From positions 930,001 through 994,000 of the forward strand of contig OZ024763.1 in NCBI GenBank assembly GCA_964016885.1: a stretch of DNA of 64,000 nucleotides, written 5' to 3'. The DNA is from Eledone cirrhosa (taxonomy: Eukaryota). How positions within the stretch are numbered: position 1 is the stretch's first letter; the number at the start of each line of letters is the position of its first letter. The translations under genes and the position numbers were made by a program. This document shows positions 1-64,000 of this stretch, piece by piece. The notes below the pieces were generated by a model that was not told the DNA's origin, ran no database searches, and worked only from the letters and a program-made list of their open reading frames with translations.

Positions 1-275
1 GTAAATGTTATGTGAGGTAAAGCCTTTACTGTGAAAATACAATAGTATATATAGAGTAATGTAAATGTTATGTGAGATATTATGTGAGGTAAAGCCTTTA
101 CTGTGAAAATACAATAGTATATATAGAGTAATGTAAATGTTATGTGAGGTAAAGCCTTTACTGTGAAAATACAATAGTATATATAGAGTAATGTAAATGT
201 TATGTGAGATATTATGTGAGGTAAAGCCTTTACCACTAAAATACAATAGTATATATAGAGTAATGTAAATGTTAT

Positions 276-2472
276 AATAATAATAATAATGAAATTATTG
301 TGTAAAGTGCTCAGGTGCACTACAACTCGTCAATATAGTACATAGAATAATACACAAATGCCAGGGAAGTACATGTTTGTATGTGTTAGCTGTAGTGTTG
401 GCGGATCTCGGGAAGCATGGAGGCCTTAAAGGATGCAGCGTCTCGACAGCTAACAACTGATGCAGGTAGTTTGTTCCATGCTTCAGCAACTCTGAGCGTG
501 AAAAAATGTTTCCGAAAGTCATGGGAACTGTGCTGTTTTCTTACTTTGTGGGCATGTCCACGTGTGTTAGACACATGGAAATCGAAAAGGCACTCAGGGT
601 TGTTGTTGGCAACATGGTTAACAATTTTGTGGGTGTTTACCAAGTCAGTTGCCAGGCGTCGGAGCTTCAATGAATCCATGCCCAGGGAAGCAAGGCGATC
701 AGAGTATGGTAGATGCCTGATGGAGGGTATTCGCTTGGTTGCACGTCTCTGAACAGTTTCCAGGCGGTCAATGTCCTGAGCAAGATAGGGGTTCCAGACT
801 GGTGATGCAAATTCTAAGTGTGGTCGCACCATAGCTGTATACAGCCTTAAATAGGTCTTGCTGAGTGATGCTAAGACACCCTCGGCCCTCTTGACAATTT
901 TAGAGACGTGCCTCGTCCAACGCAAATCGCTGCTGACCGTAATGCCCAGGTCACGTTCACAGGAAGACTTCTTGATATTAGTGCTGTGGAGGGAATATGT
1001 GGACGCTGGGTTTTTACTCCCAAAATGCATGGTGGTGCACTTGTCCACAGCCAGCTTGAGTTGCCAGTCTGTGATCCATTGTTGCATTGTGTCCAGGTCA
1101 GACTGCAAGCAAGATCTATAGTGTTCAGGATCTGTCCTTTTTATCTCAAGGTACAGCTTGATGTCGTCTGCGTACTTTAGTACTGTGGCATTCCTTAAGT
1201 TGGCATCTATGTCATTAATATATGCCACAAACAAAAGGGGGCCAAGAACAGATCCCTGAGGTACACCAGATGACATCTCATATGGTGAGGAATGCTGTCC
1301 CAGAACCGTGACTACCTCTCTTCGACTGAGAATGAAGGACTTCAACCAGTTAAAAAGATCATCCTTCACACCCATTGCAGAGAGTTTTGCCATAAGCCTT
1401 TTGTGCGGCACAGAATTGAAGGCCTTCGCAAAGTCAAGGTAAACAACATCCACCCATGAGCCGCCATCAGTGATCCGGGTGATGTCCTCAAGAAACTCTA
1501 TAAGTTGATCACAGCAGCTGGAGTTGGGGATAAATCCAAATTGCGAAGGCCGGATAAGACTGTGAGAGCTCCAGAAGTTCCAAAGTGTTTCTCTGACACA
1601 GGATTCCATCAGTTTGGCGATGCAACTAGTAAGACTGACTGGACGATAGTTCACAGGTGATGTGCGGTCACCCTTTTTGAACAGAGGAATTACACTGGCA
1701 GTTTTCCACTGTTCTGGAGTAGCACTGTTGTTCAGACAGAATTGGAAGAAGCGTGATAACTGGCGTAGAAGGAAGTACCCACCACGTTTAAGAAGCAGGT
1801 ACGTAACACCATCAAGACCAGGAGAGGCATGGTTGCGTTTATTTTTTAGGTGACGTCGCAGCATTGCAGGTGTAAATTCCATGGTTGTAATAGAGTCCGG
1901 TGTCATAGGTGGTGGAGATGGTACACTCTGGTCTTCAATGGTGAAAATGCCTGCATAGCATTCAGCAATGAGCTCTGCGCATTCCTTGGGGTCGTCAGTA
2001 ACCTGGCTTGTGTGGGGATTGCGAAGAGGACCAACTGGAGAGTGAGGCCTCTGCTTTGAGTGAACATACTTCCAGAACACCTTACTGTCAGGGCTGGTTG
2101 CTATGCGCTGCTCAAATTGAAGCACTGCCTTTTTTGTCACCTGTTTGAGGTGGTTGGACGATCTATTTCGCCTCTTCCTATTAATGTCTGATTTGTGAAG
2201 TTTGTACTCACGTTCAGCATTGCGCCGTTCTTTTCTGGCAAGACGGACTGCTGCAGTCTCCCAAATTGCGCTTTTAGGATGTTTTTTCCGCTTACGTGGC
2301 ACCGATGCTGCACATGCTGTCCATATTGAGCTCAGGATGTTCTGGAGTACAGTGTTGACATCTCCAGAGTCATAGAACTCAAGCCAGTTTGGCCGTTGCA
2401 ACTCGGTGCAGTAACAGTTCCAGTCTGCTCTATTCCAGTCAAAGTGAGCAGTTTGGAGATTGTTGTGGTTCT
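276..2472 (-). mobile_element. 5'-truncated CR1-clade non-LTR retrotransposon (LINE) inserted into a satellite array
   Basis: Uninterrupted ORF2 remnant 386-2472 with RT motifs NYRPVSLTS, QFGF, YLDFAKAF, SGVPQGSVLGPLLF, YADD and ERDLG, and a CR1-type C-terminus (TRGH..RKHFFTLRVAEAWNKLP). Short 3'UTR ends in (TAT)n; candidate TSD tgttat at 270-275 and 2473-2478. Confidence 0.9.
386..2472 (-). pseudogene. reverse transcriptase (ORF2) of the CR1-type LINE, lacking the N-terminal endonuclease
   Basis: ORF track 386..2521; the first ~16 codons are satellite-derived, not LINE. Confidence 0.85.
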
Positions 2473-2910
2473 TGTTATGTGAGATATTATGTGAGGTAAA
2501 GCCTTTACCACTAAAATACAATAGTATATATAGAGTAATTTAAATGTTATGTGAGGTAAAGCCTTTACCACTAAAATACAATAGTATATATAGAGTAATG
2601 TAAATGTTATGTGAGATATTATGTGAGGTAAAGCCTTTACCACGAAAATACAATAGTATATATATAGTAATGTAAATGTTATGTGAGATAGTATGTGAGG
2701 TAAAGCCTTTACCACTAAAATACAAAAGTATATATAGAGTAATGTAAATGGTAAAGGGTTAAAATGAAACTGCCAGAAGCCACCCCTCATATTACCTAGA
2801 TTAGGGTGTAGCGTCTACAGCTCCCTGATTCCTTTCCCTTATTTTTTATTATTTAACCCATTTTTTTTTATCAAAGCTCACTCCCGTCCCTGTTTTTCTG
2901 TTGTCTTTAG

Positions 2911-3030: not shown

Positions 3031-5351
3031 GTTAGTAACAACTGCTTCTACTCCACTGATCATTCTTTAACCCTTTAGCATTTAAACGTGCCATATCTGG
3101 CTAGAATTCTCTCACCTCTTTCTGTTGTAACGTTAAACTATTGTTCGTAATATAATTAACATTTATGTGTTGTAGGTAAATGTGTAGTATGTATGTATAT
3201 TAAGATATTTACAATATATGTGTAGTATATATGTGTGATAACACGTTTACAATGTATGTGTTGTAGGTATGTATGTGTGTTGTTAGTAATTGTGTTAACA
3301 CATTTACAATATATGTGTTGTAGGTAAATGTGTAGTATGTATGTATATTAAGATATTTACTATATATGTGTGATAACACGTTTACAATGTATGTGTTGTA
3401 GGTATGTATGTGTGTTGTTAGTAATTGTGTTAACACATTTACAATATATGTGTTGTAGGTAAATGTGTAGTATGTATGTATATTAAGATATTTACTATAT
3501 ATGTGTGATAACACATTTACAATGTATGTGTTGGAGGTATGTATGTGTGTTAGTAATTGTGTTAACACATTTACAATATATGTGTTGTAGGTAAATGTGT
3601 ACTAGATATATGTGTTAATATATTCACAATATTTGTGGTGTAAGTAAATGTGTAGTAGATATATGTATTAACATATTTACAATATATGTGTTGTAGATAT
3701 GCGTGTTAACACATTTACAATATGTGTTGTAGGTAAATGTGTACTAGATATATGTGTTAATATATTCACAATATTTGTGGTGTAAGTAAATGTGTAGTAG
3801 ATATATGTATTAACATATTTACAATATATGTGTTGTAGGTAAATGTGTTGTAGATATGCGTGTTAACACATTTACAATATGTGTTGTTAGTAATTGTGTT
3901 AACACATTTACAATATGTGTTGTTAGTAATTGTGTTAACACATTTACAATATGTGTTGTTAGTAATTCTGTTAACACATTTACAATATGTGTTGTTAGTA
4001 ATTGTGTTAACACATTTACAATATGTGTTGTTAGTAATTCTGTTAACACATTTACAATATATGTTGTTAGTAATTCTGTTAACACATTTACAATATATGT
4101 TGTTAGTAATTCTGTTAACACATTTACAATATATGTTGTTAGTAATTCTGTTAACACATTTACAATATATGTGTGTTGTAGATAAATGTGTACTAGATAT
4201 ATGTGTTAACATATTCACAATATTTTTGGTGCAAAGTAAATGTGTAGTAGATATATGTATTAACATATTTACAATATATGTGTTGTAGATATGCGTGTTA
4301 ACACATTTACAATATATGTTGTAGGCCAACCATTATTACAAACTATTTATCACATGGACCAGTCAAAAGATCAAGAAAACCTTTGTACAACGGAACATGT
4401 TTGAATTTAAACACATCAAGGTAATGTTGTCTCTTTACCTGTTCTGGCTGGCAGGCTGAAGCCATCATCTCATTCCATCTCTCTTCACAACATCACTGGT
4501 TCTATTCCTCTCTCACCCAGCCACTTTCACCCTCTCTCAACACATGACCCAACCATCTCATTCTATTCCTCTCCCACCCAGCCACTTTCACCCTCTCTCA
4601 ACACATGACCCAACCATCTCATTCTATTCCTCTCTCACCCTCTCTCAACACATGACCCAACCATCTCATTCTATTCCTCTCCCACCCAGCCACTTTCACC
4701 CTCTCTCAACACATGACCCAACCATCTCATTCTATTCCTCTCTCACCCAGCCACTTTCACCCTCTCTCAACACATGACCCAACCATCTCATTCTATTCCT
4801 CTCCCACCCAGCCACTTTCACCCTCCCTCAACACATGACTCATTCCATCTCTGTTCACAACACTCCCTCTAATATTTTTATCTTGTTGTACGTTTCAGCC
4901 ATTTGATCGAGCCTTTATTGATAATCCCGGACCTATGGTGGTGTTTGCTACCCCAGGGATGTTACATGCTGGCCTCTCACTGCAGATCTTCCGCAAGTGG
5001 GCATCAAATGAAAACAACATGGTAAGCTATCTCCTCGTTTTTCTTGTTCTCATTCTAGACCTGTGCTCTCATAATTTTATGTCCGAACCTTTGTTAAGTT
5101 ATGTTCCAAACACCAAGTTAATAATGAGAAAGTTGAGTCTATTACTAAATCCTTGCAAATTCTTGATTATTTTCAAAATGATTTGAAAATCATGGTCAGG
5201 GTATTTCATTAGAAATATGGTCACAAAAGTTATGTTCCAAGCTTATATTGCTAAATCCTAAATTGTTGATTATTTTTTAAATAATTTTCAAATCATAAGC
5301 AATGTCTTCTTTCATTTGAAATTTGGTAATGAAAGAGTTAAACGAAGAAAG

Positions 5352-6090: not shown

Positions 6091-9000
6091 AGGTGGCTGA
6101 TATTAGGAAGGGCATCCAGCCATAGAAACCAAGTCAGAATACAAGATATGGTCCCCTGACCTGACTTGTCTCATAACATAACAACCTGTCAAACCCATGT
6201 TAAACAATGATGTTGATGATGATGTCTGTTTTCAGCTTATCATGCCTGGCTACTGTGTTGCTGGAACTGTGGGACATAAAGTCCTGAGTGGAGTCAAACG
6301 ACTGGAGTTTGAAAAACAAGTGGTAAGTAACATTCTTTTAGTCTTTTACTGGTTTCAGTCATTAGACTGTGGCCATGCTGGGGCACCACCAGACATTAGA
6401 CTGTGTCCATGCTAGGGTACTACCAGTCATTAGACTGTGGCCATGCTGGGGTACCATCTTGATTTACTAAATCATATCAACTCCAGTACTTACTTTTTTT
6501 CAAGTCTGGTATATATCTGGTTTACAATAGGTTCACTGTATCCCTGTGTGTACCTAGTTTACAATAGGTACACCATATCCCTGTGTGTATCTGGTTTACA
6601 ATAGGTACACTGTATCCCTGTGTGTACCTAGTTTACAATAGGTACACCATATCCCTGTGTGTATGTGGTTTACAATAGGTACACCATATCCCTGTGTGTA
6701 TCTGGTTTACAATAGGTACACTGTATCCCTGTGTGTATCTGGTTTACAATAGGTACAACATATTCCTGTGTGTATCTGGTTTACAATAGGTACACCGTAT
6801 CCCTGTGTGTATCTGGTTTACAATAGGTACACTGTATGCATCTGGTTTACAATAGGTACACCATATCCCTGTGTGTATCTGGTTTACAATAGGTACACCA
6901 TATCCCTGTGTGTATCTGGTTTACAATAGGTACACTGTATCCCTGTGTGTATCTGGTTTACAATAGATATACTGTATCCTTGTGTGTATCTGGTTTACAA
7001 TAGGTACACCGTATCCCTGTGTGTATCTGGTTTACAATAGATATACTGTATCCTTATGTATACCTGGTTTACAATAGGTACACTGTATCCCTGTGTTTTA
7101 GGTAGTGACTGAAAGAGTTAACACAAGGAAGGACATCTGACTATAAAACATTGTCTCAGAAAGGAACCCATGATGATTATGAAGTCTATCATGGGGTCTA
7201 CAAGGATTCCCTTACTAAATCCAACCACTTTACAGAGTGTACTAGGTGCATTTTATCCTGGCACCAACACTGGGGACGTTGTCAGATCCGAGACACAACT
7301 GAAAATCTTCTCAACCCTTTACTTAGCATAGTTTCTACAGCAGGATGCCCTTCCTAACACCAAACACTAAAAGGTTTAATATTGTTTTATTTTCTTTTTC
7401 TCACTACTACTACCACTACGTTTGGTCTTAAGCTTGAAGTGAAACTGCAGGTGAGATACATGTCTTTCAGTGCACATGCTGATGCCAAAGGAATAATGCA
7501 GCTGGTGTCACAGTGTGAACCACGCAACGTGATGTTAGTACACGGGGAGGCAGCCAAAATGGACTTCCTTAAACAGAAAATACAGCAAGAATTTGGTAAG
7601 TTGAAACTAAAATATTTTAACCTTTTGATACTGGACGGACTGAAACCATCCTTGGTTCTATAATACTGACAGATTGTTGTGGAAATTTACAGTATTAGAG
7701 TAAAGACTTTAACCCTTTAGCATTTAAACCGGCCGTATCTGGCCAGAACACTCACCTCTTTCTGTTCAAACCGGCCGTAACCAACCGCTCATACTGATGT
7801 TAAGGTATTGTTCTCAAAATAAATAACATAAAAATCTCGTGGATTTGATATTATGTGAGATAAAGCCTTTACCGTGAAAATACAATAGTATATATAGAGT
7901 AATGTAAATGTTATGTGAGATATTATGTGAGGTAAAGCCTTTACTGTGAAAATACAATAGTATATATAGAGTAATGTAAATGTTATGTGAGATATTATAT
8001 TATGTGAGGTAAAGCCTTTACTGTGAAAATACAATAGTATATATAGAGTAATGTAAATGTTATGTGAGATATTATGTGAGGTAAAGCCTTTACTGTGAAA
8101 ATACAATAGTATATATAGAGTAATGTAAATGTTATGTGAGATATTATGTAAGGTAAAGACTTTACTGTGAATATACAATAGTATATATAGAGTAATGTAA
8201 ATGTTATGTGAGGTAAAGCCTTTACTGTGAAAACACAATAGTATATATAGAGTAATGTAAATGTTATGTGAGATATTATGTGAGGTAAAGCCTTTACTGT
8301 GAAAATACAATAGTATATATAGAGTAATGTAAATGTTATGTGAGATATTATGTGAGGTAAAGCCTTTACTGTGAAAATACAATAGTATATATAGAGTAAT
8401 GTAAATGTTATGTGAGATATTATGTAAGGTAAAGACTTTACTGTGAATATACAATAGTATATATAGAGTAATGTAAATGTTATGTGAGGTAAAGCCTTTA
8501 CTGTGAAAACACAATAGTATATATAGAGTAATGTAAATGTTATGTGAGATATTATGTGAGGTAAAGCCTTTACTTTGAAAATACAATAGTATATATAGAG
8601 TAATGTAAATGTTATGTGAGATATTATGTGAGGTAAAGCCTTTACTGTGAAAATACAATAGTATATATAGAGTAATGTAAATGTTATGTGAGATATTATG
8701 TAAGGTAAAGACTTTACTGTGAATATACAATAGTATATATAGAGTAATGTAAATGTTATGTGAGGTAAAGCCTTTACTGTGAAAACACAATAGTATATAT
8801 AGAGTAATGTAAATGTTATGTGAGATATTATGTGAGGTAAAGCCTTTACTGTGAAAACACAATAGTATATATAGAGTAATGTAAATGTTATGTGAGATAT
8901 TATGTGAGGTAAAGCCTTTACTGTGAAAATACAATAGTATATATAGAGTAATGTAAATGTTATGTGAGATATTATGTGAGGTAAAGCCTTTACTGTGAAA

Positions 9001-12000
9001 ATACAATAGTATATATAGAGTAATGTAAATGTTATGTGAGATATTATGTAAGGTAAAGACTTTACTGTGAATATACAATAGTATATATAGAGTAATGTAA
9101 ATGTTATGTGAGGTAAAGCCTTTACTGTGAAAACACAATAGTATATATAGAGTAATGTAAATGTTATGTGAGATATTATGTAAGGTAAAGACTTTACTGT
9201 GAATATACAATAGTATATATAGAGTAATGTAAATGTTATGTGAGGTAAAGCCTTTACTGTGAAAACACAATAGTATATATAGAGTAATGTAAATGTTATG
9301 TGAGATATTATGTGAGGTAAAGCCTTTACTGTGAAAATACAATAGTATATATAGAGTAATGTAAATGTTATGTGAGATATTATGTGAGGTAAAGCCTTTA
9401 CTGTGAAAATACAATAGTATATATAGAGTAATGTAAATGTTATGTGAGATATTATGTGAGGTAAAGCCTTTACTGTGAAAATACAATAGTATATATAGAG
9501 TAATGTAAATGATAAAGGGTTTATATTCAATGTAATGCAGTTATAGTGATGTTTTCTACTTTTCAAGAATAATTTGTTAATGTGGTTTCATGCAGTACAG
9601 GACTTTGTGTTGTTATTTTTACTAAATTCGTCTAAATTTGTCTCTCCTTGTTTCTCTCTTTCAGGAATTGACTGCCACAAACCAGCAAATGGGGAGACAG
9701 TCGTGATACGTACAATACATAATGTTCCATTAGACATTTCAGTAAATCTCTTGAAACGAGAAGCTTCTTTGTCAGGTTTGTATTATTTTGTTTCATTCAT
9801 TGATATGTGTATATCATCATCACCATTTTACGTCCGTTCTTCCACGCTAGCATGGGTTAGACGGGTTGTCCTGTTGTGGGCAGTGTCTGGTCGGCTGACC
9901 ATGCCTTGCTCATACAGGAACTGATCTGGCTTGATTTCTACAGCTGGATGCCCTTCCTAATACCAACCTCATTTACAGTGAGTGCTGGGTGTTTTTTCCT
10001 GGCCCCTACACGTCCACTTTACAGTGTGGGCTGGGTGCTTTTTTGCCGTGGCACCTCCACGACCACCTTGCGGTGGTCCACTTTACAGTGTGGGCTGGGT
10101 GCTTTTTTGCCGTGGCACCTCCACGACCACCTTGCGGTGGGGGGTGTGGGGGCATATTGTTTATATGCTTCAGCATGTACCCATGGGAGGTCGGGTACTC
10201 TGTATTACTGCGTGACGCCAGAAGTCACGGTCGTGTGTCATTGTCTTTGAGAGGTGTAATTGGGTAAGGTCGGCTTTTATCACCTCATCCCAGGTCATCT
10301 TGGGTCTCCCCACTCCGCGGTTTCCATCAACTTCCATCTATATATATATATGATACAGATGGATGAATGGACCAGGGCAAAATGGAGAGAAGAGTAAAGA
10401 AAATAGCATTTGTACATTACATTTCGCAGAGCATGCGAGCAGCCTAGCCAGGAATAAGGGATTGACGAATTCTGAGTTTCGTACTCGCAACAGGTTTATT
10501 TTATATTTGGAGAGAGAGGAAGGGATTGAGAGAGAACCACAGGCGCGTATACAATATATAGGGGGGGGGGGTGAAGAATAGGAGGGAGCAGAGGTTATTT
10601 TATAAAATCCTAGAATTTCGGTCATAATTAAACGAACGAGAATGGGGTAGTTAGCGAGAAGGTTTAGATAAAATCCTCGAATTTTGGGGATAATTGAACA
10701 AGCATATACACTGGGATAATTGCTGGCCTTATGCCAAAAGTAGAAACAATTATTATTTTTGCTTGTTTTATATTGTACCAAGTGTCTTATTTCTCATACG
10801 CTAGGTCTGTCTGTTCCTGACCCCAAACGGTTACGGATTCTAAATGGAGCCCTTGTCATCAAAGCAAATGTAAATAAATTTTCTAATTTCTGTTTGTTTT
10901 CTTTTGTTCTCCCCAAGTAAGGCAATAAAGCCACTAAAATATTAGGGGTTACTGAGATGGGAGAAGGATGAGACAGACACAGGGGCCCCCTGTGTCTAAC
11001 TTTACTCTCCATCAGTACCAGCACCCACAATACCATGTAATTTCCCCATGTTTTTCTATCTCCACATGACAGAAGAGCCAACTTGTTGACCCAGCACAGG
11101 CCATGCGTGACCTGGGACTTAAACAACATCAACTTCGATTCACATCCACCATTTCCCTGGACGATGATGGAGCCGTCTCGGACACGGCTGACAAACTTTA
11201 CCAAAAAATCAAAACGTAAGTTTTACATATATATATAATTTCTACTTTACGGACAAGGCCAGTAATTTGGGGAGAGGGGAAAGTCGATTAAATCGACCCA
11301 GTATGTTACTGGTACTTTATTTTATCGACCCCGTAAGGATGAGATAAAGTCGACTGTAAAGGGCCGTAACTATGCTGCAAAGCATGGCGTCCAACCCTCT
11401 ACTGTCAAGCCACCATCTTAATAATAATGGTTTCTACTATAGGCACAAGGCCAGCAATTACCTCAGTACATTACTGGTACTTTATTTTATCGACTCCGTA
11501 AGGAGGAAGGGCAAAGTTAACCTCGGCTGGATTAGAAACTCAGATCGTATAGGGCTGTAACTCTATGCTGCTAAGCATGGTGATTGATGCTCAGCCAATC
11601 CACCACCCTAGTTTTACATTTATATAATTACATAAATGGAGAAAGAATAACCAAGTTATATTTAACCATTTACCATTTACATTACTCTTTCACGTCTTTG
11701 ACGCTATATATACTATTGTATTTTCACAAAGGCTTTACCTCACATAACATTTACATTACTCTATATATACTATTGTTTTCACAGTAAAGGCTTTACCTCA
11801 CATAATATTTACATTACTCTATATATACTATTGTTTTCACAGTAAAGGCTTTACCTCACAATATCTCACATAACATTACTCTATATATACTATTGTATTT
11901 TCACAAAGGCTTTACCTCACATAACATTTACATTACTCTATATATACTATTGTTTTCACAGTAAAGGCTTTACCTCACATAACATTTACATTACTCTATA

Positions 12001-12796
12001 TATACTATTGTATTTTCACAGTAAAGGTTTTACCTCACATAATATCTCACATAACATTTACATTACTCTATATATACTATTGTATTTTCACAGTAAAGGC
12101 TTTACCTCACATAACATTTACATTACTCTATATATACTATTGTATTTTCACAGTAAAGGCTTTACCTCACATAACATTTACATTACTCTATATATACTAT
12201 TGTATTTTCACAGTAAAAGCTTTCTCTCATAATTATCTCACATAATATCGAATCTATGAGATTTTGATATTATTTATGTTAAGAACAATACCTTAACATA
12301 AGTATGAGCGGCCGGTTACTGCTGGTTTGCACAGCAAGAAGTGAAAGGATGCGACCAGTTTAAAACGATGTTTGAAGTACAACTTAGATATATCTATCTG
12401 TTTAACAATTTTTCCAGCAAATTGAAAGACTACCCAATCCATTATTCATCCGATGGTTCCATGACAATTGCTGACACAGTTTTGGTAAAAGTCTCCGGAG
12501 ATGAAGAAACGAAAGACATTGCTGTTTCATGGCTCCATCAGGTAAGTGGTACCTTGTCTTTACTCTAATACTACAAATTTTCACAACCTGTACATTAGTA
12601 AAGATACTATAAACATTTGAATTAACAAAACTGTTTTTAGATATTTTTTTGCTGAATCCTTACAGGATGTTAAGAGTTAAACCAGTTATTTTTATGTCTG
12701 TCTTTTAATGCTAATATCGTTTTATTTCCATTGTAGGATGAAGAATTAGGCAGCTACTTACTGAAACTTCTAGAAACTGGGCTGGAAGGAACATGA
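2911..12796 (+). CDS. INTS11: Integrator complex subunit 11 (CPSF3-like metallo-beta-lactamase/beta-CASP endonuclease), 3' part; 5' exons lie upstream of the window
   Basis: Ten GT-AG exons join in frame: 2911-3030, 4325-4420, 4899-5021, 6236-6322, 7433-7595, 9665-9775, 10805-10869, 11073-11215, 12418-12541, 12737-12796(TGA). Peptides [67 protein letters not shown] and [17 protein letters not shown] match INTS11 as I know it. Confidence 0.96.
3160..4324. repeat. complex AT-rich minisatellite (core gttaacacatttacaatatgtgttg; 39-bp units at 3861-4170) running up to the exon acceptor
   Basis: direct reading. Confidence 0.9.
4325..4420 (+). CDS. INTS11: INTS11 exon ([32 protein letters not shown])
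   Basis: ttgtag| ... |gtaatg, 96 nt. Confidence 0.93.
4498..4845. repeat. pyrimidine-rich ~61-bp minisatellite, ~6 copies
   Basis: tctattcctctcccacccagccactttcaccctctctcaacacatgacccaaccatctcat. Confidence 0.9.
4899..5021 (+). CDS. INTS11: INTS11 exon ([23 protein letters not shown]...NENNM)
   Basis: tttcag| ... |gtaagc, 123 nt. Confidence 0.93.
5475..6058. repeat. fold-back element, ~145-bp inverted arms (5475-5630, 5916-6058) between (TA)n tracts
   Basis: arms are reverse complements apart from a 12-bp indel and a substitution. Confidence 0.9.
6236..6322 (+). CDS. INTS11: INTS11 exon ([19 protein letters not shown]...KQV)
   Basis: tttcag| ... |gtaagt, 87 nt. Confidence 0.93.
6514..7097. 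repeat. 37-bp minisatellite, ~16 copies
   Basis: tctggtttacaataggtacactgtatccctgtgtgta. Confidence 0.92.
7433..7595 (+). CDS. INTS11: INTS11 exon ([17 protein letters not shown]...QQEF)
   Basis: cttaag| ... |gtaagt, 163 nt; contains the SAHAD and VHGE beta-CASP motifs. Confidence 0.9.
7713..9519 (+). mobile_element. TTAA element family A with ~24-25 internal 60/72-bp satellite units
   Basis: TTAA|CCCTTTAGCATTTA left end, ~135-bp unique arm, tandem array 7850-9510, TAAATGATAAAGGG|TTTA right end. Confidence 0.88.
9665..9775 (+). CDS. INTS11: INTS11 exon ([12 protein letters not shown]...ASLS)
   Basis: tttcag| ... |gtttgt, 111 nt, phase 1-1. Confidence 0.9.
10805..10869 (+). CDS. INTS11: INTS11 exon ([21 protein letters not shown])
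   Basis: cgctag| ... |gtaaat, 65 nt; frame-compatible with both neighbours. Confidence 0.8.
11073..11215 (+). CDS. INTS11: INTS11 exon ([25 protein letters not shown]...KIK)
   Basis: gacag| ... |gtaagt, 143 nt. Confidence 0.88.
11666..12345 (-). mobile_element. TTAA element family A, inverted orientation, ~9 degenerate units
   Basis: ttaa|ccatttaccatttacattac end, reverse-complement units, unique arm 12240-12345. Confidence 0.8.
12418..12541 (+). CDS. INTS11: INTS11 exon (KLKDYPIH...VSWLHQ)
   Basis: ttccag| ... |gtaagt, 124 nt. Confidence 0.9.
12737..12796 (+). CDS. INTS11: INTS11 last coding exon ([19 protein letters not shown])
   Basis: ttgtag|, ends TGA. Confidence 0.9.
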   Translation, partial: DEELGSYLLKLLETGLEGT

Positions 12797-13094: not shown

Positions 13095-14100
13095 ATTGAA
13101 TGATACTGCCGGCATATGGTTAGAATGTCTCAGGAAAGAATCACTGGACTGAGAGATCATAACTCCGATACTATGGACATTTGGTTAGACTGTCTCAGGA
13201 AAGAACCACTGGAGTCACTTCAGGTAGAGCCACTACTTCTCTGAATTGAAAGATCACAGCTCTGATACTATGGACATGTGGTTAGAATGTCTCAGGAAAG
13301 AATCTCTGGATTGAGAGATCATAACTCCGATACTATGGACATTTGGTTAGAATGTCTCAGGAAAGAATCTCTGGATTGAGAGATCATAACTCCGATACTA
13401 TGGACATTTGGTTAGACTGTCTCAGGAAAGAACCACTGGAGTCACTCCAGGTAGAGCCACTACTTCTCTGAATTGAAAGATCACAGCTCTGATACTATGG
13501 ACATGTGGTTAGAATGTCTCAGGAAAGAATCACTGGACACATTTGTAGCTCGGAGATCAGAGAGTTACTCCAGGTAGAGCTGCTGCTACTCTGAATTGAG
13601 AGATCACAGCTCTGATACTATGGACATGTGGTTAGAATGTCTCAGGAAAGAATCACTGGACAGATTTGTAGCTCGGAAATCAGAGAGTTACTCCAGGTAG
13701 AGCTGCTGCTACTCTGAATTGAGAGATCACAGCTCTGATACTATGGACATGTGGTTAGAATGTCTCAGGAAAGAATCACTGGACAGATTTGTAGCTCGGA
13801 AATCAGAGAGTTACTCCAGGTAGAGCTGCTACTTCTCTGTATTGAGAGATCACAGCTCTGATACTATGGACATGTGGTTAGAATGTCTCAGGAAAGGATA
13901 TATGGACAGATTTTATGGGTAAAACAAACCGGCAAGAGACCCAGGAGTAGACAGAGAGAAAGATGGTTGGATAACATCCACTAGCTTGGCTGGTCTCACC
14001 TGAGGATCCAGCAAGATCAATTGAAGATGGTTGCTTCTGAAAGGACCTGCTAGAAGGAGTGTTTGAGGACTCTGCCCCCACGACCGCCTCATGAATATGT
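13095..14100 (+). mobile_element. RTE-clade LINE 3' end with an internally tandem-amplified ~60/120-bp segment
   Basis: unit translates to [27 protein letters not shown], a typical RTE ORF2 C-terminus; inverted counterpart at 51497-52350. Confidence 0.7.
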
Positions 14101-28700: not shown

Positions 28701-31700
28701 AAAATGGAAAAATGGAAAAATGGAAAATGGAAAAATGGAAAATCCTGCATATTTATAGGCAGCGAATTGGCAGAGTCGTTAAAACGTCGGATAGAATGCT
28801 TTATGGTATTTATTCCAGCTCTCTGATCTCTGAGTTCAAATCCCACTGAGGTCAACTTTGCCTTTCATCCTTTCAAGGTCGATAAAAAAAGTACCAATCT
28901 AGTACTGGGGTTGATTCTTCCTCTATATCTCTTTCTCATTTCCTCTCCATATATATATAGATATATATATATAACTAAAATACCAGTCTAATACTGGGGT
29001 AGATTCCTCCTCTATATCTCTTTCTCATTTCCTCTCTCCATATATATAATATATATATAGTACCAGTCTAATACTTGTTTCGGCCCAGGATGTTGGTCCC
29101 ACAACATCCAGGCCGAAACAAATGAGATCGTGTAGGTGTCACGACAAAAAAACACACAGTCCACGCTGTAAATGTGGCCGTGTAGGCAACACGGTAAAAA
29201 CCTCCCAGCCCCACACTGTAAATGTAGTTGGTGTTAGGAAGGGCATCCAGCTGTAGAAAACCCGCCAGACAGTCCACGCTGTAATGTGGCCCGTGTAGGC
29301 AACACGGTAAAAACCTCCCAGCCCCACACTGTAAATGTGGTTGGTGTTAGGAAGGGCATCCAGCTGTAGAAAACCCGCCAGACAGTCCACGCTGTAATGT
29401 GGCCGTGTAGGCAACACGGTAAAAACCTCCCAGCCCCACACTGTAAATGTGGTTGGTGTTAGGAAGGGCACCCAGCTGTAGAAAACCCGCCAGACAGTCC
29501 ACGCTGTAATGTGGCCGTGTAGGCAACACGGTAAAAACCTCCCAGACCCACACTGTAAATGTGGTTGGTGTTAGGAATGGCATCCAACTGTAGAAAACCC
29601 GCCAGATAGTCCTATGCGAGCAAGACAACCACTCTTGCCTCAAGTGGGAAAACCCCCGTCCAAACCCATGCAAGCGTGGAACACGGACGCTAAACCTGAT
29701 GATGATGATGATATATATATATATAGTACCAGTCTAATACTGGGGTAGATTCTTCCTCTATATCTCTTTCTCACTTCCTCTCCTTCTCTGTAAGAAATCT
29801 GCTGTACTCAGGCCTGGAGAAGGATGGGCTATATTTACCTAGCATATTGAACTGCACTTTTAATTAGTTGTCCAGCTTTCCGGAATTCTCTTTTCACTAC
29901 ACAAGCCTGAAAAGAAAGAAAGAAGCCGTTTAAGTATGGAGAACATTTCTTTAGACAGACAGTCATCTCACAAATGGCAGAATGATGAAACCTAACACTC
30001 TAACCACAAAGCTACCTACGCACTTTCACACAAAACCAAAACCTGAGTGAAGGTTGTAAATATATGTGGTAGAAAGAAAAAAAAATCCTCAAATGTGTGG
30101 GCCGTGGAGGTAGGGTTATGGTGCCACAACAAAAAGTGCCCAGTCCACTCTGTAAATTGGGCTGAGCCAGAGACAATAAAATGCTCCCATTACACAGTAA
30201 CATGGTTGGTGTTAAGAAGGGCATCATCCAACAGTAAAAACCAACCCCAAAATGAAGCATACGAGTAACACATTATCACCTGACCCATGGAAATAAATGT
30301 TAACCCTTTATCACAGGGGTCCCCAACCCCCGGCCCACGAAGGCCTTTATCCTGCCCGCGAGGGTTCTAAAAAGGGTACAGTTTGCAATAAATTCACACC
30401 CGATTTATCGATATTGCCGAATAAAACAATGTTTAATTGTATTTTTCTGCTTGGGACAGCTCTAAATATCAACATTGAATTTTGTTTCAAATCTAACATA
30501 AGGGATAAATAAATGATTACTTATTTGTATATAAGTAGTATTAATTGTGCATCCGGCCCACGGACCCAAAAGGTTGGGGAGCCCTGCTTTACCATTTACA
30601 TTACTCTATATATACTATTGTATTTTCATGGTAAAGTCTTTACCTCACATAATATTTCACATAATATCAAATCTATAAGATTTTGATATTTATTTTGAGA
30701 ACAATACCTTAACATCACTATGAGTGGCCAGTTACAGCCGTTTGAACAGAAAGAGGTGAGAGAATTCTGGCCAAATATGGCCGGTTTAAATGGTGGTGAT
30801 TATTATTAAAAAACTAATCAGAGTATTTACCTTGGCACATTGACGAAGAACATCAATTATTGTCTGGAAATAGAAAGAAAAATATAAATATTTATAGATA
30901 TGAAAAAAATATTTTTTTTCGTAGTTTTATATTTATTTTCTTTGCAAGAAACAAAAAATTGGAAAAAGACAAAAATACCAAATTAGAATTTCGTTTTTTT
31001 TGCTCTAACATAGTGGATATGTAAATGTATTTGTGAGTTTTATATCAAATAATAATAATAATATTTGATGTATTTGCAAGCAAACAGCCTCATTACATTA
31101 TATTTTATAGACAACCATCATCATCCTTTTGTTCTAGCAGTGACAGAGAGAGAAACAATCTGTCAAAATGGGCTGTAGATTCTTCTAGAAGAGTAATGAA
31201 GTGAAGAATGGAGAGAGAGAGAGAGAGAGAGAGGGGGCGTGTAGGGACTGTAGATTATTCTAGAACTGTAGTGAAGTGAAGAGAGAGAGAGGGTGTGCAG
31301 GGACTGTAAATTATTCTACAACAGCAGTGAAGTGAAGAATGAGAGAGGGTGCAGGGAAATAAAAGATATATTACTTACCCTCGGTGATAAGATCGGCGTG
31401 AGTTGTTGAACAGCTAAATTGCAATATTTATATGCCTGTTACGGAGAGAAAAACAATGTTAGTAACTGGGACAAGTTGATAATAATCATGGTATTCAGTC
31501 ACGACTCCATTCCAGTCAATCTCTTTTCTAACTTACATCAGAAAAATTAATAAAAAATTAAAGGTCACACCTATATGAAGGTTTAGCTGTCCTCATAGGT
31601 GTTTATAGTGTGTGTGGTGTCTAGTGTGTGTTGAGACTAAAGATGTGTGTATGTGTGTGAGACAAGAGGTGTATATGACAAGATCTGTGTGTGTGTCTGT

Positions 31701-33825
31701 GAGACAAGAGGTGTGTGTGTGATACAAGAGGTGTTTGTGTGTCTGTGAGACAAGATGTGTGTGTCTGTGAGACAAGAGGTGTGTGTCTGATACAAGAGGT
31801 GTGTGTGTCTGTGATACAAGAGGTGTGTGTCTGTGATACAAGAGGTGTTTGTGTGTCTGTGATACAAGAGGTGTTTGTGTGTCTGTGAGACAAGAGGTGT
31901 GTGTGTGTCTATGAGACAAGAGGTGTGTGTGTGAGACAAGAGGTGTGTATGTATGTATATATGCATGACAATATGTTGTGTGTGTATATGTGTATAAGGG
32001 ATTAAGAATCCATAACAAAAGGTTTAGTCCCCTTACCTGGTCATACTGACTTTCTGCAAAAAATAACCCACAACATTCCCCGTACAACATGGCCTTGTTC
32101 ACTGCTATATTTGCCTGGTTCAATATATTTAATATCTTAAATGTCTCTTTGAAAGTTTCATTAGCTTCTCTATATTTACAACTGGAATTCTGTACATGAA
32201 GTAATCTGACAAAAAATAAAAACAAAAGAATATATTATTGTTGTTTTAACCCTTTACATTATTCTATATATACTATTGTATTTTAGTGGTAAAGTCTTTA
32301 CCTCACATAATATCTCACATACTATTTACATTACTCTATATATATACTATTATATTTTCACAGTAAAGGCTTTATCTCACATAATATTTCACATACCATT
32401 TACATTACTCTATATATACTATTATATTTTCACGATAAAGGCTTTACCTCACATAATATTGAATCTATGAGATTTTGATATTATTTATTTTGAGAACAAT
32501 ACCTTAACATCAGTATGAGTGGCCAATTACAGCCGGTTTGAACAATCTGGCCGGATATGGCCGGTTTAAATGCTAAAGGGTTAAGTTAACCTCGTAGAAA
32601 CAATTATTAAATAGCAATAAATTGGGATTTTTGTCCTTAAGGTCGGGTCACAATTAGTTTCCTTAGGGTTCAAGGACATTTCTTCATATTCTTGCTGTAC
32701 CCAGTAAGGCAGACATTTGGGTCAATGCTACCCCTATGTCTTTCAGCAATGTCATATGAAGTATCTTGCTCAAGAATGCAATGCCCTGTCTGATTCAAGA
32801 ATCAAACTCAACAACCTTATGAACCTCCTGAGTCCCACACCCTCACCACAAAACTACAGTGTATTCACTTTAGTACTCACCTGACGTTACACTCTAACAA
32901 TTTACATAGTCCACTGTAGGTTTTGTCTTGATCACAAAGTAGCCGACATGTGTGGTAGACTTTCTCACTGCTGAAGAACCAGCCTGATTCATTAAAAAAC
33001 CCCGCTGAAATAAAGAGAATAGTTTCTTCAGAAATTTAATCAAACATCGAATTTATTTATTACTTAAGCCTTTATTTATTACTTAAGCATTTAAACTGGC
33101 CAGATACATACATATATATATATAAAGTGTCTTGAGCAAGACACTTTATTTCACATTACTCCAGTTTACTCAGCTGTAGAAATGAGATGATAGGGACTGG
33201 GGTCCCTATCATTCCACTGCAAAGTGGTCATGGAGGTGCCACGGAAAAAAAGCACCCAGCACTCACTGTAAATGAGGTTGGTGTTAGGAAGGGCATCCAG
33301 CCAGAATCAGTTCCCGTCCCACCCTTGCAAGCAGGGAAAAGCAGACGTAAAATGATGATAATGATGAAGATGATGATGATAAAGAGGGTGTGGTAAGATA
33401 CCAGGTGGACCATAACGCATCTGAGTACTCAATACTTAGGGTAGTAGAGTGGTTAATATGAAAAGAGTCAGGACCCCGACGGCTGAGCTCCGGCCATTTC
33501 GACAGCTAGATCCAAACTGTTCAGATCTAGCTGTCGAAACAGCTGGAGCTCAGCCGTCGGGGTCCTGACTCTTTTCATATATATATATATATATATATCA
33601 TCATCAACACCATTTTACGTCCGTTCTTCCACACAAACATGGGTTAGATGGGGGTTGTCCTGTTGTGGGCAGTGTCCGGTCGGCTGACCTTGTCTTGCTC
33701 ATACGGGAACTGATTCTGGCTTGATTTCTACAGCTGGATGCCCTTCCTAACACCAACCTCATTTCCAGTGAGTGCTGGATGCTTGTTTTTCCATGGCGCC
33801 TACACGTCCACTTTACAGTGTGGGC

Positions 33826-42689: not shown

Positions 42690-44105
42690 ATGTCTACTTT
42701 TTCATGCTAGCATGGGTTAGCTGTGTGTTTTCCATCACAGTATCCCTCTAAATGTTGCGATACTTCGCCATCTACTCTGAGTTTCAGTGATTTGAGATAA
42801 GCTCTCAACACCTCTGCCCAGGTTTTCCTCTATTGCAGCTTTTTTCCACTGTGATTTCTTGGCACTTCTTCACCCATTGCATATCCATACAAGCACAATA
42901 TTCTCTCCTGCACACATCATCTAATTCCTCTTATACCTAGTCTTTCTCTCAGTTCATAGTGTACTTTGTTGTTCATCCACTAACATTGCAGATCCATCGA
43001 AGCATGCTCACTTCATTTTACTCCAACCTTGACATATCTTCTGCATCCATGACGCATGTCTCACTACTATGCAACATTAAACATCAGTCTACCCCTGCTA
43101 GCATCGAAGAACGGACGTAAAACGGTGATGATGATGATGATGACATAAGCATTATACAGCTAACATGTCATTAAGGAGCAAGATTCCGTTTTCAACAGCA
43201 GTAGTAGCTCCCTGAAATGTTTCCATCCCATTCTTATTCTAGCTACTGTCTTCTCAGAGTACCATCCCTCGCAGTTAATCAGATCACCTAAAATAGCAAA
43301 GCTATCAACTACTTCTATGGATCATTCCTGGGATTAGAAAAGGTTTATATCACTGATGTTCTTACTACCAACCATCTCTGTACATCTGCTATATACAAAG
43401 TCTTCCCTTCTTTTTTGTCTGCCTGTTATCCCACTACACCTCTTGTATACCCAAGATTTACATTGTATAGAGTTTCTGCCTACTTCGTTTCTACACATTG
43501 AGCATAGCTACTTCACTGATGAAATCAGGGTTTTCTTTGCTTTCCCTTTTATTAAAATCTAGTTTTTGCCAAGTTTACCCTCAGCCTTTTTAATTCTAAG
43601 TTTTGTTTCAACAACTAAAATTTATTCTTTTGTTCTTCCACAGATTCAGCTATAAAAACCAGATCATCAGCATACAGAAGTTCCTGTGGGCAGCCAGTTT
43701 TAACCCTTTAGCATTTAAACCGGCTGTATCTGACCAGAATTCTCTCACCTCTTTCTGTTCAAACCGGCTGCTTATAATAATGTTAAGTATTGTTCTCAAA
43801 ATAAATATCAAAATCTCATAGATTCAATATTATGTGAGATAAAGTGTTTACCGTGAAAATAAAATAGTAAATATAAAGTAATGTAAATGCTAAAGGATTA
43901 AACTCCTCAGTTATGGCCTGGAGAACTATAAATAACAGAATATGGGATAATGACTGAACCCTGGTGTACACCTACCTACACATTGAATTCCTCACTAAAC
44001 TCACTTCTTACTCTCACTTTACAAACAGCTCCTGCTTACACTGCTCTCACAAACCATTCTTCTACGCCTAGTTTCTCTAAGAACCACCAGATGGCAGAAT
44101 GTGGT
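42690..44105 (-). mobile_element. decayed RTE-clade LINE RT fragment
   Basis: minus-strand remnants VGVHQGS, LLYADDL and ..R.GW..F.EL; multiple stops and frameshifts. Shorter RTE 3' ends ([15 protein letters not shown]) at 18620-18890, 25530-25665, 25846-26100, 34130-34413 and 57300-57470. Confidence 0.75.
43704..43897 (+). mobile_element. TTAA element family A, minimal one-unit copy (~194 bp) inserted in an RTE RT remnant
   Basis: TTAA|CCCTTTAGCATTTA ... TAAATGCTAAAGGA|TTAA; removing it plus one TTAA restores the RT reading AITEEFKTGCPQELLYADDL on the minus strand. Confidence 0.9.
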
Positions 44106-44419: not shown

Positions 44420-45099
44420 CTCTTAACATCCCGTAATGATTTAGCAGAAAATATCAAGAAACAAGCTTGTTAATTCAAATATTTATAGTGGACAGATTGT
44501 TGTGGAAATTTGCAGTATTGAAGAAAAGACTTTAATCACTGATGTGATGCAGTCATAGTGTTGTTTTATACTTTTTAACAATGACTTTCTAATGTATGTT
44601 AATTCAAATGTTTATAGTGGACAGATTGTTGTGGAAATTTGCAGTATTGAAGTAAAGACTTTAATCACTGATGTGATGCAGTCATAGTGTTGTTTTATAC
44701 TTTTTAACAATGTATGTTAATTCAAATGTTTATAATAGATTTACTAGTGGACAGATTGTTGTAGACATTTGCAGTATTGAAGTAAAGACTTTAATCACTA
44801 ATGTGATGTAGTCTTAGTGTTGTTTTGTACTTTTCAAGAACGTCTTGCTAATGTGGCTTCATGTGGTTTATTACATTAAATGAATATAGTATCTTTACTA
44901 GTGGACAGATTGTTGTGAAAATTTTCAGCCAATCACAGTAAAGACTTATTTCATGTGACACAGTCATAATACTGTTTTGTATTTTTCAAGAATGTTTTGT
45001 TAATTCAAATATTTATCGTATATTTAATGTGATACAGTCCCTACACTGCTTTGTATATTTTCAAGAATGTCTTGCTAATGCAGTACATGATGTTAAGAG
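44420..45099. mobile_element. TTAA element family C with diverged internal ~130-bp tandem repeats, in the presumed SF3B4 3'UTR
   Basis: TTAA|CTCTTAACATC ... GATGTTAAGAG|TTTTAA inverted ends; repeated gtggacagattgttgtggaaattt; fragments also at 12600-12680, 54277-54390 and around 7660-7712/9520-9610. Confidence 0.7.
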
Positions 45100-45388: not shown

Positions 45389-48300
45389 CTTTTAAAAGAA
45401 GAAAAAAGAGCGAGATAAAAATAATTCGATGAAAACGAATGAAAATTCAAGTTTCCTCATCAAACAAGCTCGTCACTCAAGATGTGGTCTTCAATTAGTG
45501 AGCATTTTAACCCTTCAGCATTTACATTACTCTATATATACTATTGTATTTTTACAGTAAAGGCTTTACCTCACATAATATTTACATAACTCTATATATA
45601 CTATTGTATTTTCGCAGTAAAGGCTTTACCTCACATAATATTTACATAACTCTATATATACTATTGTATTTTCGCAGTAAAGGCTTTACCTCACATAATA
45701 TTTACATAACTCTATATATACTATTGTATTTTCGCAGTAAAGGCTTTACCTCACATAATATTTACATAACTCTATATATACTATTGTATTTTCGCAGTAA
45801 AGGCTTTACCTCACATAATATTTACATAACTCTATATATACTATTGTATTTTCGCAGTAAAGGCTTTACCTCACATAATATTTACATAACTCTATATATA
45901 CTATTGTATTTTCGCAGTAAAGGCTTTACCTCACATAATATTTACATAACTCTATATATACTATTGTATTTTCGCAGTAAAGGCTTTACCTCACATAATA
46001 TTTACATAACTCTATATATACTATTGTATTTTCGCAGTAAAGGCTTTACCTCACATAATATTTACATAACTCTATATATACTATTGTATTTTCGCAGTAA
46101 AGGCTTTACCTCACATAATATTTACATTACTCTATATATACTATTGTATTTTCGCAGTAAAGGCTTTACCTCACATAACATTTACATAACTCTATATATA
46201 CTATTGTATTTTCGCAGTAAAGGCTTTACCTCACATAATATTTACATTACTCTATATATACTATTGTATTTTCACAGTAAAGCCTTTACCTCACATAATA
46301 TTTACATTACTCTATATATACTATTGTATTTTCACAGTAAAGCCTTTACCTCACATAATATTTACATTACTCTATATATACTATTGTATTTTCACAGTAA
46401 AGCCTTTACCTCACATAATATTTACATTACTCTATATATACTATTGTATTTTCACAGTAAAGCCTTTACCTCACATAATATTTACATTACTCTATATATA
46501 CTATTGTATTTTCACAGTAAAGCCTTTACCTCACATAATATTTACATTACTCTATATATACTATTGTATTTTCACAGTAAAGCCTTTACCTCACATAATA
46601 TTTACATTACTCTATATATACTATTGTATTTTCACAGTAAAGCCTTTACCTCACATAATATTTACATTACTCTATATATACTATTGTATTTTCACAGTAA
46701 AGCCTTTACCTCACATAATATTTACATTACTCTATATATACTATTGTATTTTCACAGTAAAGCCTTTACCTCACATAATATTTACATTACTCTATATATA
46801 CTATTGTATTTTCACAGTAAAGCCTTTACCTCACATAATATTTACATTACTCTATATATACTATTGTATATTCACAGTAAAAGCTTTACCTCACATAATA
46901 TCTCGCATAACATTTACATTACTCTATATATACTATTGTATTTTCACAGTAAAGGCTTTACCTCACATAATATCTCGCATAACATTTACATTACTCTATA
47001 TATACTATTGTATTTTCACAGTAAAGCCTTTACCTCACATAATATTTACATTACTCTATATATACTATTGTATTTTCACAGTAAAAGCTTTACCTCACAT
47101 AATATCTCGCATAACATTTACATTACTCTATATATACTATTGTATTTTCACAGTAAAAGCTTTACCTCACATAATATCTCGCATAACATTTACATTACTC
47201 TATATATACTATTGTATTTTCACAGTAAAGCCTTTACCTCACATAATATTTACATTACTCTATATATATTATTGTATTTTCACAGTAAAAGCTTTACCTC
47301 ACATAATATCTCGCATAACATTTACATTACTCTATATATACTATTGTATTTTCACAGTAAAAGCTTTACCTCACATAATATCTCGCATAACATTTACATT
47401 ACTCTATATATACTATTGTATTTTCACAGTAAAAGCTTTACCTCACATAATATCTCGCATAACATTTACATTACTCTATATATACTATTGTATTTTCACA
47501 GTAAAGCCTTTACCTCACATAATATCTCACATAACATTTACATTACTCTATATATACTATTGTATTTTCACAGTAAAAGCTTTACCTCACATGATATCGA
47601 ATCTATAAGATTTTGATATTATTTATTTTGAGAACAATATCTTACCAGTATGAGCAGCCAGTTTGAACAGAAAAAAGTGAGAGAATTCTGGCTGGATATG
47701 GAAGGTTTTAATGCTAAAGGGTTAAAGTAGTGTTAATATTTTACATCCGAAAACACACACACACGCACATCAGATGAAAAAAAAAAAGAACTCACAGACA
47801 CGTCAAGCAGAAAATAAAGCTACACACAAGAAAGAAAAAAAGTCAAAAACTTGCGTACCAAAAGGTGGTGGTCCACGGGGTGGACTTGGTCCTCTCCAGC
47901 CAGGTGGTGGAGGTGGTGGTCTCATTCCTGGTGGTGGTGGTGGAGGCATGCCTGGTGGCATAGGCCCCGGGGGTGGAGGGGCAATGTTTGAAGGGGGTCC
48001 AGGAGGCCCTGCATTAGCTGCAAACAAACAAAAACATGTTGAAGAACATTGAAATAAACCCACCCCCGCCAAAAAAAAAAAAAAATACATTTTTATTTTC
48101 CAAAAACCACATCATCATCATCATCACCACCACTGTAACAAGGATTTCTTATATAGGCACAAGACAAGTAATTTTGGGGGAGGGGAAAGTCGATTAAATC
48201 GACCCCAGTGGGTTACTGGTACTTTATTTTATCGACCCCGTAAGGATGAAAGGCAAAGTTAACCTCGGCGGGATTTGAACTCAGACCGTAAAGCATAGCG

Positions 48301-63659: not shown

Positions 63660-64000
63660 GATAATAATAATAATAAAAATTATTGTGTACAGTGCTCAGG
63701 TGCATTACAACTCATCAAAGGTGCATGTATAATACATAGAATAATGTACAAAAGTCAAGAAAGGGAACAGTGTATGGAGAGGCATATCAGATGTAGCGTT
63801 AGCAAATTTCATGAAACATGGAAGTTTTAAAGGATGCAGTGTCGTGACAGCTAACAACAGATGCAGGTAGTTTGTTCCATGGAGGTTTTAAAAGATGCAG
63901 TGTCTTGACAGCTAACAACAGATGCAGGTAGTTTGTTCCATGGAGGTTTTAAAGGATGCAGTGTCTTGACAGCTAACAACAGATGCAGGTAGTTTTTTCC
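63660..64000 (-). mobile_element. CR1 LINE 3' end with the same 61-bp segment tandemly repeated (runs off window)
   Basis: (ATA)n tail, aattattgtgtacagtgctcaggtgca, 3+ units catggaggttttaaaggatgcagtgtc... Confidence 0.85.

What the first reader, a model, noticed from the sequence alone, without database searches (positions are those of the whole stretch)
7713..9519. Mobile satellite: TTAA-targeting piggyBac-like element whose internal 60/72-bp unit ranges from 1 to >30 copies
Seen: at least nine loci share one architecture: TTAA|CCCTTTAGCATTTA, a ~135-bp unique arm, n copies of (tatgtgaggtaaagcctttactgtgaaaatacaatagtatatatagagtaatgtaaatgt +/- tatgtgagatat), then TAAATGCTAAAGGG|TTAA. Approximate n is 1 (43704-43897, 30304-30792), 3 (32250, 59785), 9 (11666), 17 (54495), 24-25 (this copy) and 33 (45511). 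Established: TTAA target duplication and CCC...GGG ends define the piggyBac superfamily; MITEs/Helentrons with internal tandem arrays are known seeds of satellite DNA in some invertebrates. Inference: a ~190-bp MITE spreads, and its subterminal unit (perhaps the transposase-binding repeat) then expands locally. The family makes up roughly an eighth of this window. I do not recognise it as a named family.
Basis: partly seen in the sequence, partly recalled or inferred. Interest (0 to 1): 0.8.

Follow-up and report, generated by a model that had tools for sequence, protein, structure and literature searches.

The report
Octopod MITE carrying an expanding minisatellite
This is an old, roughly 200-base non-coding transposon in an octopus-like genome, likely once moved by a piggyBac enzyme, whose 72-base end segment has been copied head-to-tail from 1 to 33 times at different insertion sites, which makes it another example of a known route from transposon to satellite DNA rather than a new kind of element.

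Summary
Eleven loci of one family fill 12.2% of the window; nine carry units, n = 1, 1, 3, 3, 8 or more, 9, 17, 24 and 33. Ends are 14-bp CCCTT-type inverted repeats, and TTAA flanks 14 of 15 surviving ends. An empty paralogous site shows that the focal copy duplicated its TTAA. Corrections: only 4 of 11 loci keep both ends, none has both TIRs perfect, and arms are 6-11% diverged, so present mobility is not shown. All 7 multi-unit loci share one unit-to-unit junction, so the duplication likely arose once in a master copy. Arrays then grew in place, as locus-private variants and higher-order periods show. Expansion is not special to this family: 22 unrelated arrays lie in the same window. The transposase-binding idea for the unit is unsupported. 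The host is an octopod; the family is abundant in runs of two species labels. It parallels Xenopus miDNA4 and Xmix/Xstir. One oddity remains: long-array units are closer to each other across loci (0.6-3%) than the arms are (about 5%). Repeat libraries could not be searched.

The parts
7709..7712 (+). Left target-site copy TTAA of the focal element
   Evidence: aligns to the single TTAA (44532-44535) of the empty paralogous site
7713..7726 (+). Left 14-bp terminal inverted repeat, CCCTT type
7727..7851 (+). Unique left arm with a doubled GC-rich ~20-bp motif (7727-7746, 7769-7788); 6.5% from the arm consensus
7852..9511 (+). Array of 24 units of 72/60 bp (one of 77), with a locus-private 276-bp higher-order period
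9506..9519 (-). Right terminal inverted repeat, one mismatch; its inner 6 bp belong to the last unit
9520..9523 (+). Right target-site copy, mutated to TTTA
1..2758 (+). One copy (n at least 8, cut by the window edge) split by a 5'-truncated LINE at about 276-2474; right TIR and TTAA present
3071..3127 (+). Left end only (57 bp), followed by an unrelated tandem array
11666..12371 (-). Copy with 9 units; left end lost, right TIR decayed, TTAA present
30304..30797 (-). One-unit copy; left end decayed; ~270-bp hAT-like insert with an imperfect 8-bp duplication in the right TIR
32250..32580 (-). Three-unit copy, TTAA on both sides, 7-bp deletion in the right TIR
43704..43897 (+). One-unit copy of 194 bp, TTAA on both sides; reference for read laying
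45511..47721 (-). Copy with 33 units, TTAA on both sides, one mismatch in each TIR
54479..55825 (+). Copy with 17 units (mostly a 70-bp variant); left end lost, right TIR and TTAA present
59793..60024 (+). Three-unit copy; most of the left arm lost, right TIR perfect with TTAA
62243..62383 (+). Left arm only, cut off by another repeat
44420..45099 (+). A second inverted-repeat element (CTCTT ends) with its own 129-bp internal array; it holds the empty sites matching the focal insertion point

Best explanation
It is a ~200-bp non-coding inverted-repeat element that duplicates TTAA on insertion, likely mobilised in the past by a piggyBac transposase supplied in trans; its last 72 bp were likely duplicated once in a master copy, and the resulting arrays grew at each insertion site, probably by slippage or unequal exchange. 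Shown: TIRs, TTAA duplication, dispersal to many unrelated flanks, one shared junction, locus-private variants and higher-order periods. Inferred: the piggyBac enzyme, the single master, the repair or replication process that adds units, and that the copies here are now immobile shells. The 60-bp units derive from the 72-bp unit by loss of a 12-bp internal duplication, in two different registers.
For: TSD: the same four bases of an empty paralogous site (44532-44535) align to both the left TTAA and the right TTTA of the focal copy, with flanks in register; 3 of 4 paralogous empty units have the single TTAA. TTAA flanks 14 of 15 surviving ends. Termini begin CCCTT, the piggyBac motif (PMC10813416, PMC2872659, passages), not the RR..YY of Kolobok (PMC9587614, passages). 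Dispersal: 2,198 contigs in run X1 and 1,522 in X2 run off into unrelated sequence at the TTAA (agreement 0.36-0.38). Single origin: 7 of 7 multi-unit loci share the junction or its 12-bp-deleted form, with no exact microhomology at it (read). Local growth: 9 of 12 variants found in three or more units of a locus reach that count in one locus only; 276-bp, 204-bp and 282/352-bp higher-order periods are each confined to one locus. Regional process: 22 unrelated arrays, 9.3 kb, two of which straddle another element's end plus host flank.
Against: No transposase was found (none in 73 window ORFs or exons scanned with Pfam) and no genome is held to look further. Long-array units are closer to the shared 72-mer (0.6-3.1%) than AT-rich arm segments are to their consensus (25 of 478 sites, 5.2%), with perfect 72-mers at 3 loci; simple insert-then-expand does not predict this unless pure arrays are favoured. 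Only 9 unit-bearing loci in one window were examined. The unit-to-unit junction was not among the best-supported joints listed (15 shown, 871 hidden), so arrays outside this window are not demonstrated.
Confidence: 0.72

Rival explanations
1. Array tracts are exchanged between loci after insertion (ectopic gene conversion, gap repair from another copy, or re-integration of circles), so old MITE shells act as landing pads for a homogenised minisatellite.
For: Units are younger-looking than the arms that hold them: locus-majority 50-bp cores of 5 loci differ from the shared core at 2 sites against 12.3 expected from non-CpG arm divergence (Poisson P = 4e-4, post hoc). The 11666 copy has an 11% diverged arm and decayed ends but units at 0.6%. 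First or last units often keep the monomer-type letters while interior units do not. Other units are also arrayed at two loci in this window.
Against: Majority consensus and the reference are drawn from the same arrays, which biases the test. Survivor bias (only pure arrays expand) or arm subfamilies would give the same pattern. Most common variants are locus-private. The 32250 and 2475 units are as diverged as arms (6-7%).
Confidence: 0.17
2. Long arrays are the transposing form: the element moves with tens of units, a true mobile satellite.
For: The 33-unit copy keeps CCCTT and TTAA at both ends; the junction is shared by all arrays.
Against: No two arrays share unit order or higher-order period; arms are 6-11% diverged; 7 of 11 loci lack a recognisable end.
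Confidence: 0.06
3. It is a Helentron/pearl/DINE-1-type rolling-circle element, the usual carrier of internal arrays in molluscs.
For: Internal tandem array and a short palindrome in the unit; such elements are common in bivalves (PMC3879986, part 3 of 5 read; PMC7492417, listing only).
Against: A true 4-bp TTAA duplication, terminal rather than subterminal inverted repeats, no tetranucleotide microsatellite, and no unusual fold (z about -1).
Confidence: 0.03
4. The long arrays are assembly artefacts.
For: Array lengths could not be checked against reads; TRF masks 36% of the window.
Against: Ordered, locus-private variants, higher-order periods and a LINE inserted in one array with a short duplication are not what collapse or expansion errors produce.
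Confidence: 0.02

Closest known systems
miDNA4-Xt of Xenopus tropicalis (Scalvenzi and Pollet 2014; seen only through passages of PMC12628747, PMC9659126, PMC12054243)
   Same: A MITE whose satellite motif is present as one monomer or as an array of variable length; arrays outlive decaying ends; 61% of copies are monomeric and multi-unit copies lie in subtelomeric regions.
   Different: miDNA4 is Tc1/mariner; this one has TTAA and CCCTT ends. Here the unit is the element's own subterminal segment and includes 6 bp of the right TIR.
Xmix MITE / Xstir repeat of Xenopus (Hikosaka and Kawahara 2004; seen only through passages of PMC12628747, PMC2872659, PMC9659126)
   Same: Tandem arrays made from part of a MITE's internal sequence; PMC2872659 calls it a piggyBac-MITE.
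   Different: Different host; no sequence comparison was possible. From recall, Xmix belongs to the T2-MITEs now linked to Kolobok.
CMITE of Acropora corals (PMC2872659, part 1 of 4 and passages)
   Same: piggyBac/TTAA MITE with 13-14-bp TIRs, forms tandem arrays ascribed to slippage.
   Different: CMITE arrays repeat the whole ~100-bp element; here only the 72-bp subterminal part is repeated, inside one pair of ends.
DTC84 / pearl family of bivalves (PMC3879986, part 3 of 5)
   Same: Mollusc non-autonomous element with an internal array and position-specific unit variants.
   Different: Up to about five units, AA duplication, a microsatellite, probably Helitron-like; here up to 33 units and a TTAA duplication.
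PiggyBac and satellite families in the curated Octopus vulgaris library (PMC13282606; part 1 of 3, passages, supplement search)
   Same: 36 PiggyBac families (15.6 Mb) and 80 satellite families are tabulated; a TIR-element burst is dated at JC 0.09, near the divergence seen here.
   Different: No sequences are in the text held, so identity with any of them is untested; the window's exon is 93% identical to O. vulgaris, so the species may differ.

Membership tests
piggyBac/TTAA MITE | TTAA target-site duplication | tested here: met
   14 of 15 surviving ends flanked by TTAA; empty paralogous site has one TTAA
piggyBac/TTAA MITE | 12-19-bp TIR starting CC[C/T]T | tested here: met
   14-bp TIR starting CCCTT; motif as defined in PMC2872659 and PMC10813416
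piggyBac/TTAA MITE | Small, non-coding, high copy | tested here: met
   194-bp monomer; no Rfam match at E up to 0.1; thousands of distinct flanks in two runs
piggyBac/TTAA MITE | An autonomous piggyBac transposase with matching ends in the genome | not testable with these tools
   No genome held; none among 73 window ORFs or exons
Kolobok / T2-MITE | TTAA duplication with 5'-RR..YY-3' termini | tested here: not met
   Termini are CC..GG; definition from PMC9587614
Helentron / pearl / DINE-1 | No true TSD or only AA/TT; subterminal inverted repeats; microsatellite next to the array | tested here: not met
   4-bp TTAA duplication, terminal repeats, no microsatellite
MITE with variable internal tandem array (miDNA4 kind) | Unit present as monomer or as arrays of variable length inside the same ends | tested here: met
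   n = 1 to 33 over 9 loci
MITE with variable internal tandem array (miDNA4 kind) | Most copies genome-wide monomeric, arrays enriched in particular regions | tested here: inconclusive
   Summed contig depth on the unit end is 0.5-0.8 of that on the arm, which fits mostly monomers, but the tool warns that such depth is no copy number
A family already in Dfam, Repbase or an octopus repeat library | Sequence match of 80% over 80% to a library consensus | not testable with these tools
   No repeat library is searchable here; a 12-base TIR motif was absent from the one supplement held for PMC13282606, which lists no sequences

The most novel reading that the evidence does not exclude
Dead piggyBac-MITE shells in octopod introns serve as landing pads for a 72-bp minisatellite that is exchanged between loci without transposition, keeping units nearly identical across loci while their containers decay. 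That would be a genome-wide, transposase-free dispersal route for satellite arrays, testable because each shell carries its own clock.
Probability: 0.17. Interest if true: 0.5.

Novelty: new member of a known kind. Interest (0 to 1): 0.27.

Why it matters
It adds a cephalopod, piggyBac-type case to the known MITE-to-satellite route and adds about 1.7-2.2 kb to single introns of housekeeping genes (INTS11-like, SF3B4-like). Its practical value is as a natural experiment: many dated shells with arrays of different length allow a direct test of whether array growth favours unmutated units or whether units move between loci. It does not reveal a new mechanism on present evidence.

Tried and rejected
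Whole-genome search: no genome is held for this window, so no genome-wide TSD table and no transposase search. Unit as transposase-binding repeat: no motif shared with the left arm beyond chance. Unit or arm as structured single strand: z of -0.95 to -1.10; no Rfam match. Segmental duplication as the source of the loci: self-alignment shows only short dispersed repeats, and flanks of different copies are unrelated. Joints in run X1 that skip the whole element (2 contigs, 20 letters on the short side, often with letters between) were not accepted as empty-site evidence. RAD runs X5 and X6 could not measure unit number: their read ends pile at 43738-43741, at a GAATTC site in the arm, so depth is likely anchored there. 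Run X1 held only 0.08 of the words; once laid it held the family but no piece spanning the orthologous site. Array lengths in other individuals were not tested. Earlier findings of this scan: three look-ups returned nothing. Six literature searches listed no paper that, by title or abstract start, describes this octopod family; subscription papers and repeat databases are outside the library.
Full report
Observation. The TTAA+TIR 18-mer occurs 13 times in the window at up to 2 mismatches and never in 100 shuffles. Parsing all arrays gives nine unit-bearing loci with n = 1 (43704), 1 (30304), 3 (32250), 3 (59793), at least 8 (1-2758), 9 (11666), 17 (54479), 24 (7713) and 33 (45511), plus two left-arm fragments (3071, 62243). 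The family covers 7,786 bp, 12.2% of the window. The architecture is less uniform than stated. Only 4 of 11 loci have both ends and none has two perfect TIRs. The arrays at 1-275 and 2475-2758 are one copy interrupted by a reverse-transcriptase ORF of 717 codons (PF00078) with a TAA-repeat tail and a 6-bp duplication. The 30304 copy carries a ~270-bp insert with CAGGG..CCCTG ends and an imperfect 8-bp duplication, hAT-like by recalled criteria.

Setting. The window holds exons of an INTS11-like gene (Beta-Casp, RMMBL and IntS11_C domains), a TPR gene and a two-RRM gene that I read as SF3B4-like from recall. The focal copy lies between two INTS11-like exons. A 60-residue exon of the TPR gene is 93% identical to APPBP2 proteins named for Octopus vulgaris and Argonauta hians, 90% to one unnamed protein, and at most 78% to the other 117 of 120 listed hits, so the host is an octopod.

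Transposon nature. The focal copy sits inside a fragment of a second repeat, whose uninterrupted copies at 44468-44950 provide empty sites. The same four bases (44532-44535) align with the left TTAA and with the right TTTA of the focal copy, and the flanks continue in register; 3 of 4 empty units have the TTAA. TTAA flanks 14 of 15 surviving ends. The termini start with CCCTT, given as the commonest piggyBac TIR start in PMC10813416 (passages) and matching the CC[C/T]T rule in PMC2872659 (passages); Kolobok, the other TTAA superfamily, has RR..YY termini (PMC9587614, passages). Laying four of seven listed runs on the one-unit copy gave 956 + 1,242 contigs in X1 and 698 + 824 in X2 that leave the element at the TTAA into unrelated sequence (agreement 0.36-0.38). 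X1 bears a different species label from X2. Summed contig depth on the arm is about 1.3-1.4 x 10^5 times that of single-copy contigs; the tool states that this is no copy number, so I take it only as 'very abundant'. Both TIRs and sibling families with the same end may add to the flank counts. No transposase domain was seen in 73 window ORFs or exons scanned (these were a selection of the stop-free frames, not all), and no genome is held. Arms are 5.6-11.1% from their consensus, 1.9-9.4% without CpG columns, so these are old insertions.

How the arrays arose. All 7 multi-unit loci share one junction, in which the inner 6 bp of the right TIR join the start of the unit, or its 12-bp-deleted form. 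I see no exact microhomology there, so seven independent origins are unlikely; a master with two or more units likely transposed. The 60-bp units come from loss of the 12-bp internal duplication in two registers (one common at 45511, the other elsewhere). That duplication is also common in copies genome-wide (625 and 253 contigs with the loose end at 43842). Growth then happened in place: 9 of 12 substitutions carried by three or more units of some locus reach that count in only one locus, and higher-order periods of 276, 204 and 282/352 bp each belong to one locus. This is a property of the region as much as of the element: TRF masks 36% of the window, and 22 unrelated arrays with period of 25 bp or more cover 9.3 kb, two of them spanning the end of another TTAA element together with host flank.

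Results against the simple reading. Interior units of the four long arrays that have arms differ from the shared 72-mer by 0.6, 1.4, 2.5 and 3.1%, and perfect 72-mers occur at 3 loci, while the AT-rich part of the arms differs from its consensus at 25 of 478 sites, 5.2%. A post hoc Poisson test on locus-majority cores of 5 loci gives 2 differences against 12.3 expected, but it is biased by the use of majorities. Short arrays do not all show the effect (6.2% at 32250, 6.9% at 2475, 2.1% at 59793). Survivor bias towards pure arrays or arm subfamilies could explain it; exchange between loci is the bolder reading. Also, depth on the unit end is 0.5-0.8 of that on the arm, and the unit-to-unit junction is not among the 15 joints shown (871 hidden), so long arrays outside this window are not demonstrated and most copies may be monomers.

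Comparison. The same life history is described for Xenopus miDNA4 (monomer or variable array inside a MITE, ends decaying, multi-unit copies subtelomeric) and Xmix/Xstir; I saw these only through passages of PMC12628747, PMC9659126, PMC12054243 and PMC2872659, not the primary papers. Coral CMITEs are piggyBac MITEs that array whole. Clam DTC84 has short internal arrays with position-specific variants but AA duplications (part 3 of 5). The curated O. vulgaris annotation lists 36 PiggyBac and 80 satellite families without sequences in the text held; its library, Dfam and Repbase could not be searched and may well hold this family. Six searches listed no paper on it by title or abstract start.

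Verdict. A real piggyBac-type MITE family of an octopod, with an internal minisatellite that likely arose once and grew locally. It meets the three piggyBac-MITE features that could be tested; the partner transposase is untested. New member of a known kind; interest 0.27.

Noticed in passing
window 44420-45099: A second inverted-repeat element with CTCTT ends and its own 129-bp internal array; high depth and 515 contigs with unrelated flanks at its left end in run X2. Fragments of it lie in or within about 200 bp of three array-bearing copies (7713, 11666, 54479); at 11666 an exon lies between, so a composite element is unlikely there.
   Followed up: partly
window 19784-20192 and 27656-28041: Tandem arrays (48 bp x 8.6; 110 bp x 3.3) whose unit is the end of a third TTAA/CCCTT element plus host flank: duplications born at the locus.
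   Followed up: partly
window 29090-29712 and 56115-56511: The same 112-bp unit arrayed 4.1 and 2.1 times at two loci in opposite orientation, with flanks 98-100% identical: a recent copy of an array-bearing piece.
   Followed up: no
window 13439-13913 / 51701-52352 and 24374-25097 / 63817-64000: Two more units (about 123 bp and 60 bp) each arrayed at two loci in opposite orientation.
   Followed up: no
window 276-2539: A 5'-truncated LINE with an uninterrupted 717-codon RT frame (PF00078, E 5e-38), inserted into one of the arrays; it looks young.
   Followed up: partly
window 30312-30589: A ~270-bp hAT-like element inserted in the right TIR of the one-unit copy; no second copy in the window.
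   Followed up: partly
window 55826-56000 and 12371-12545: The 17-unit copy ends about 20 bp from an exon of the RRM gene, and the 9-unit copy begins about 50 bp from an INTS11-like exon.
   Followed up: no
whole window: 36% of the window is tandem repeat by TRF although it holds at least three housekeeping genes; this may be a distal, high-recombination region.
   Followed up: no
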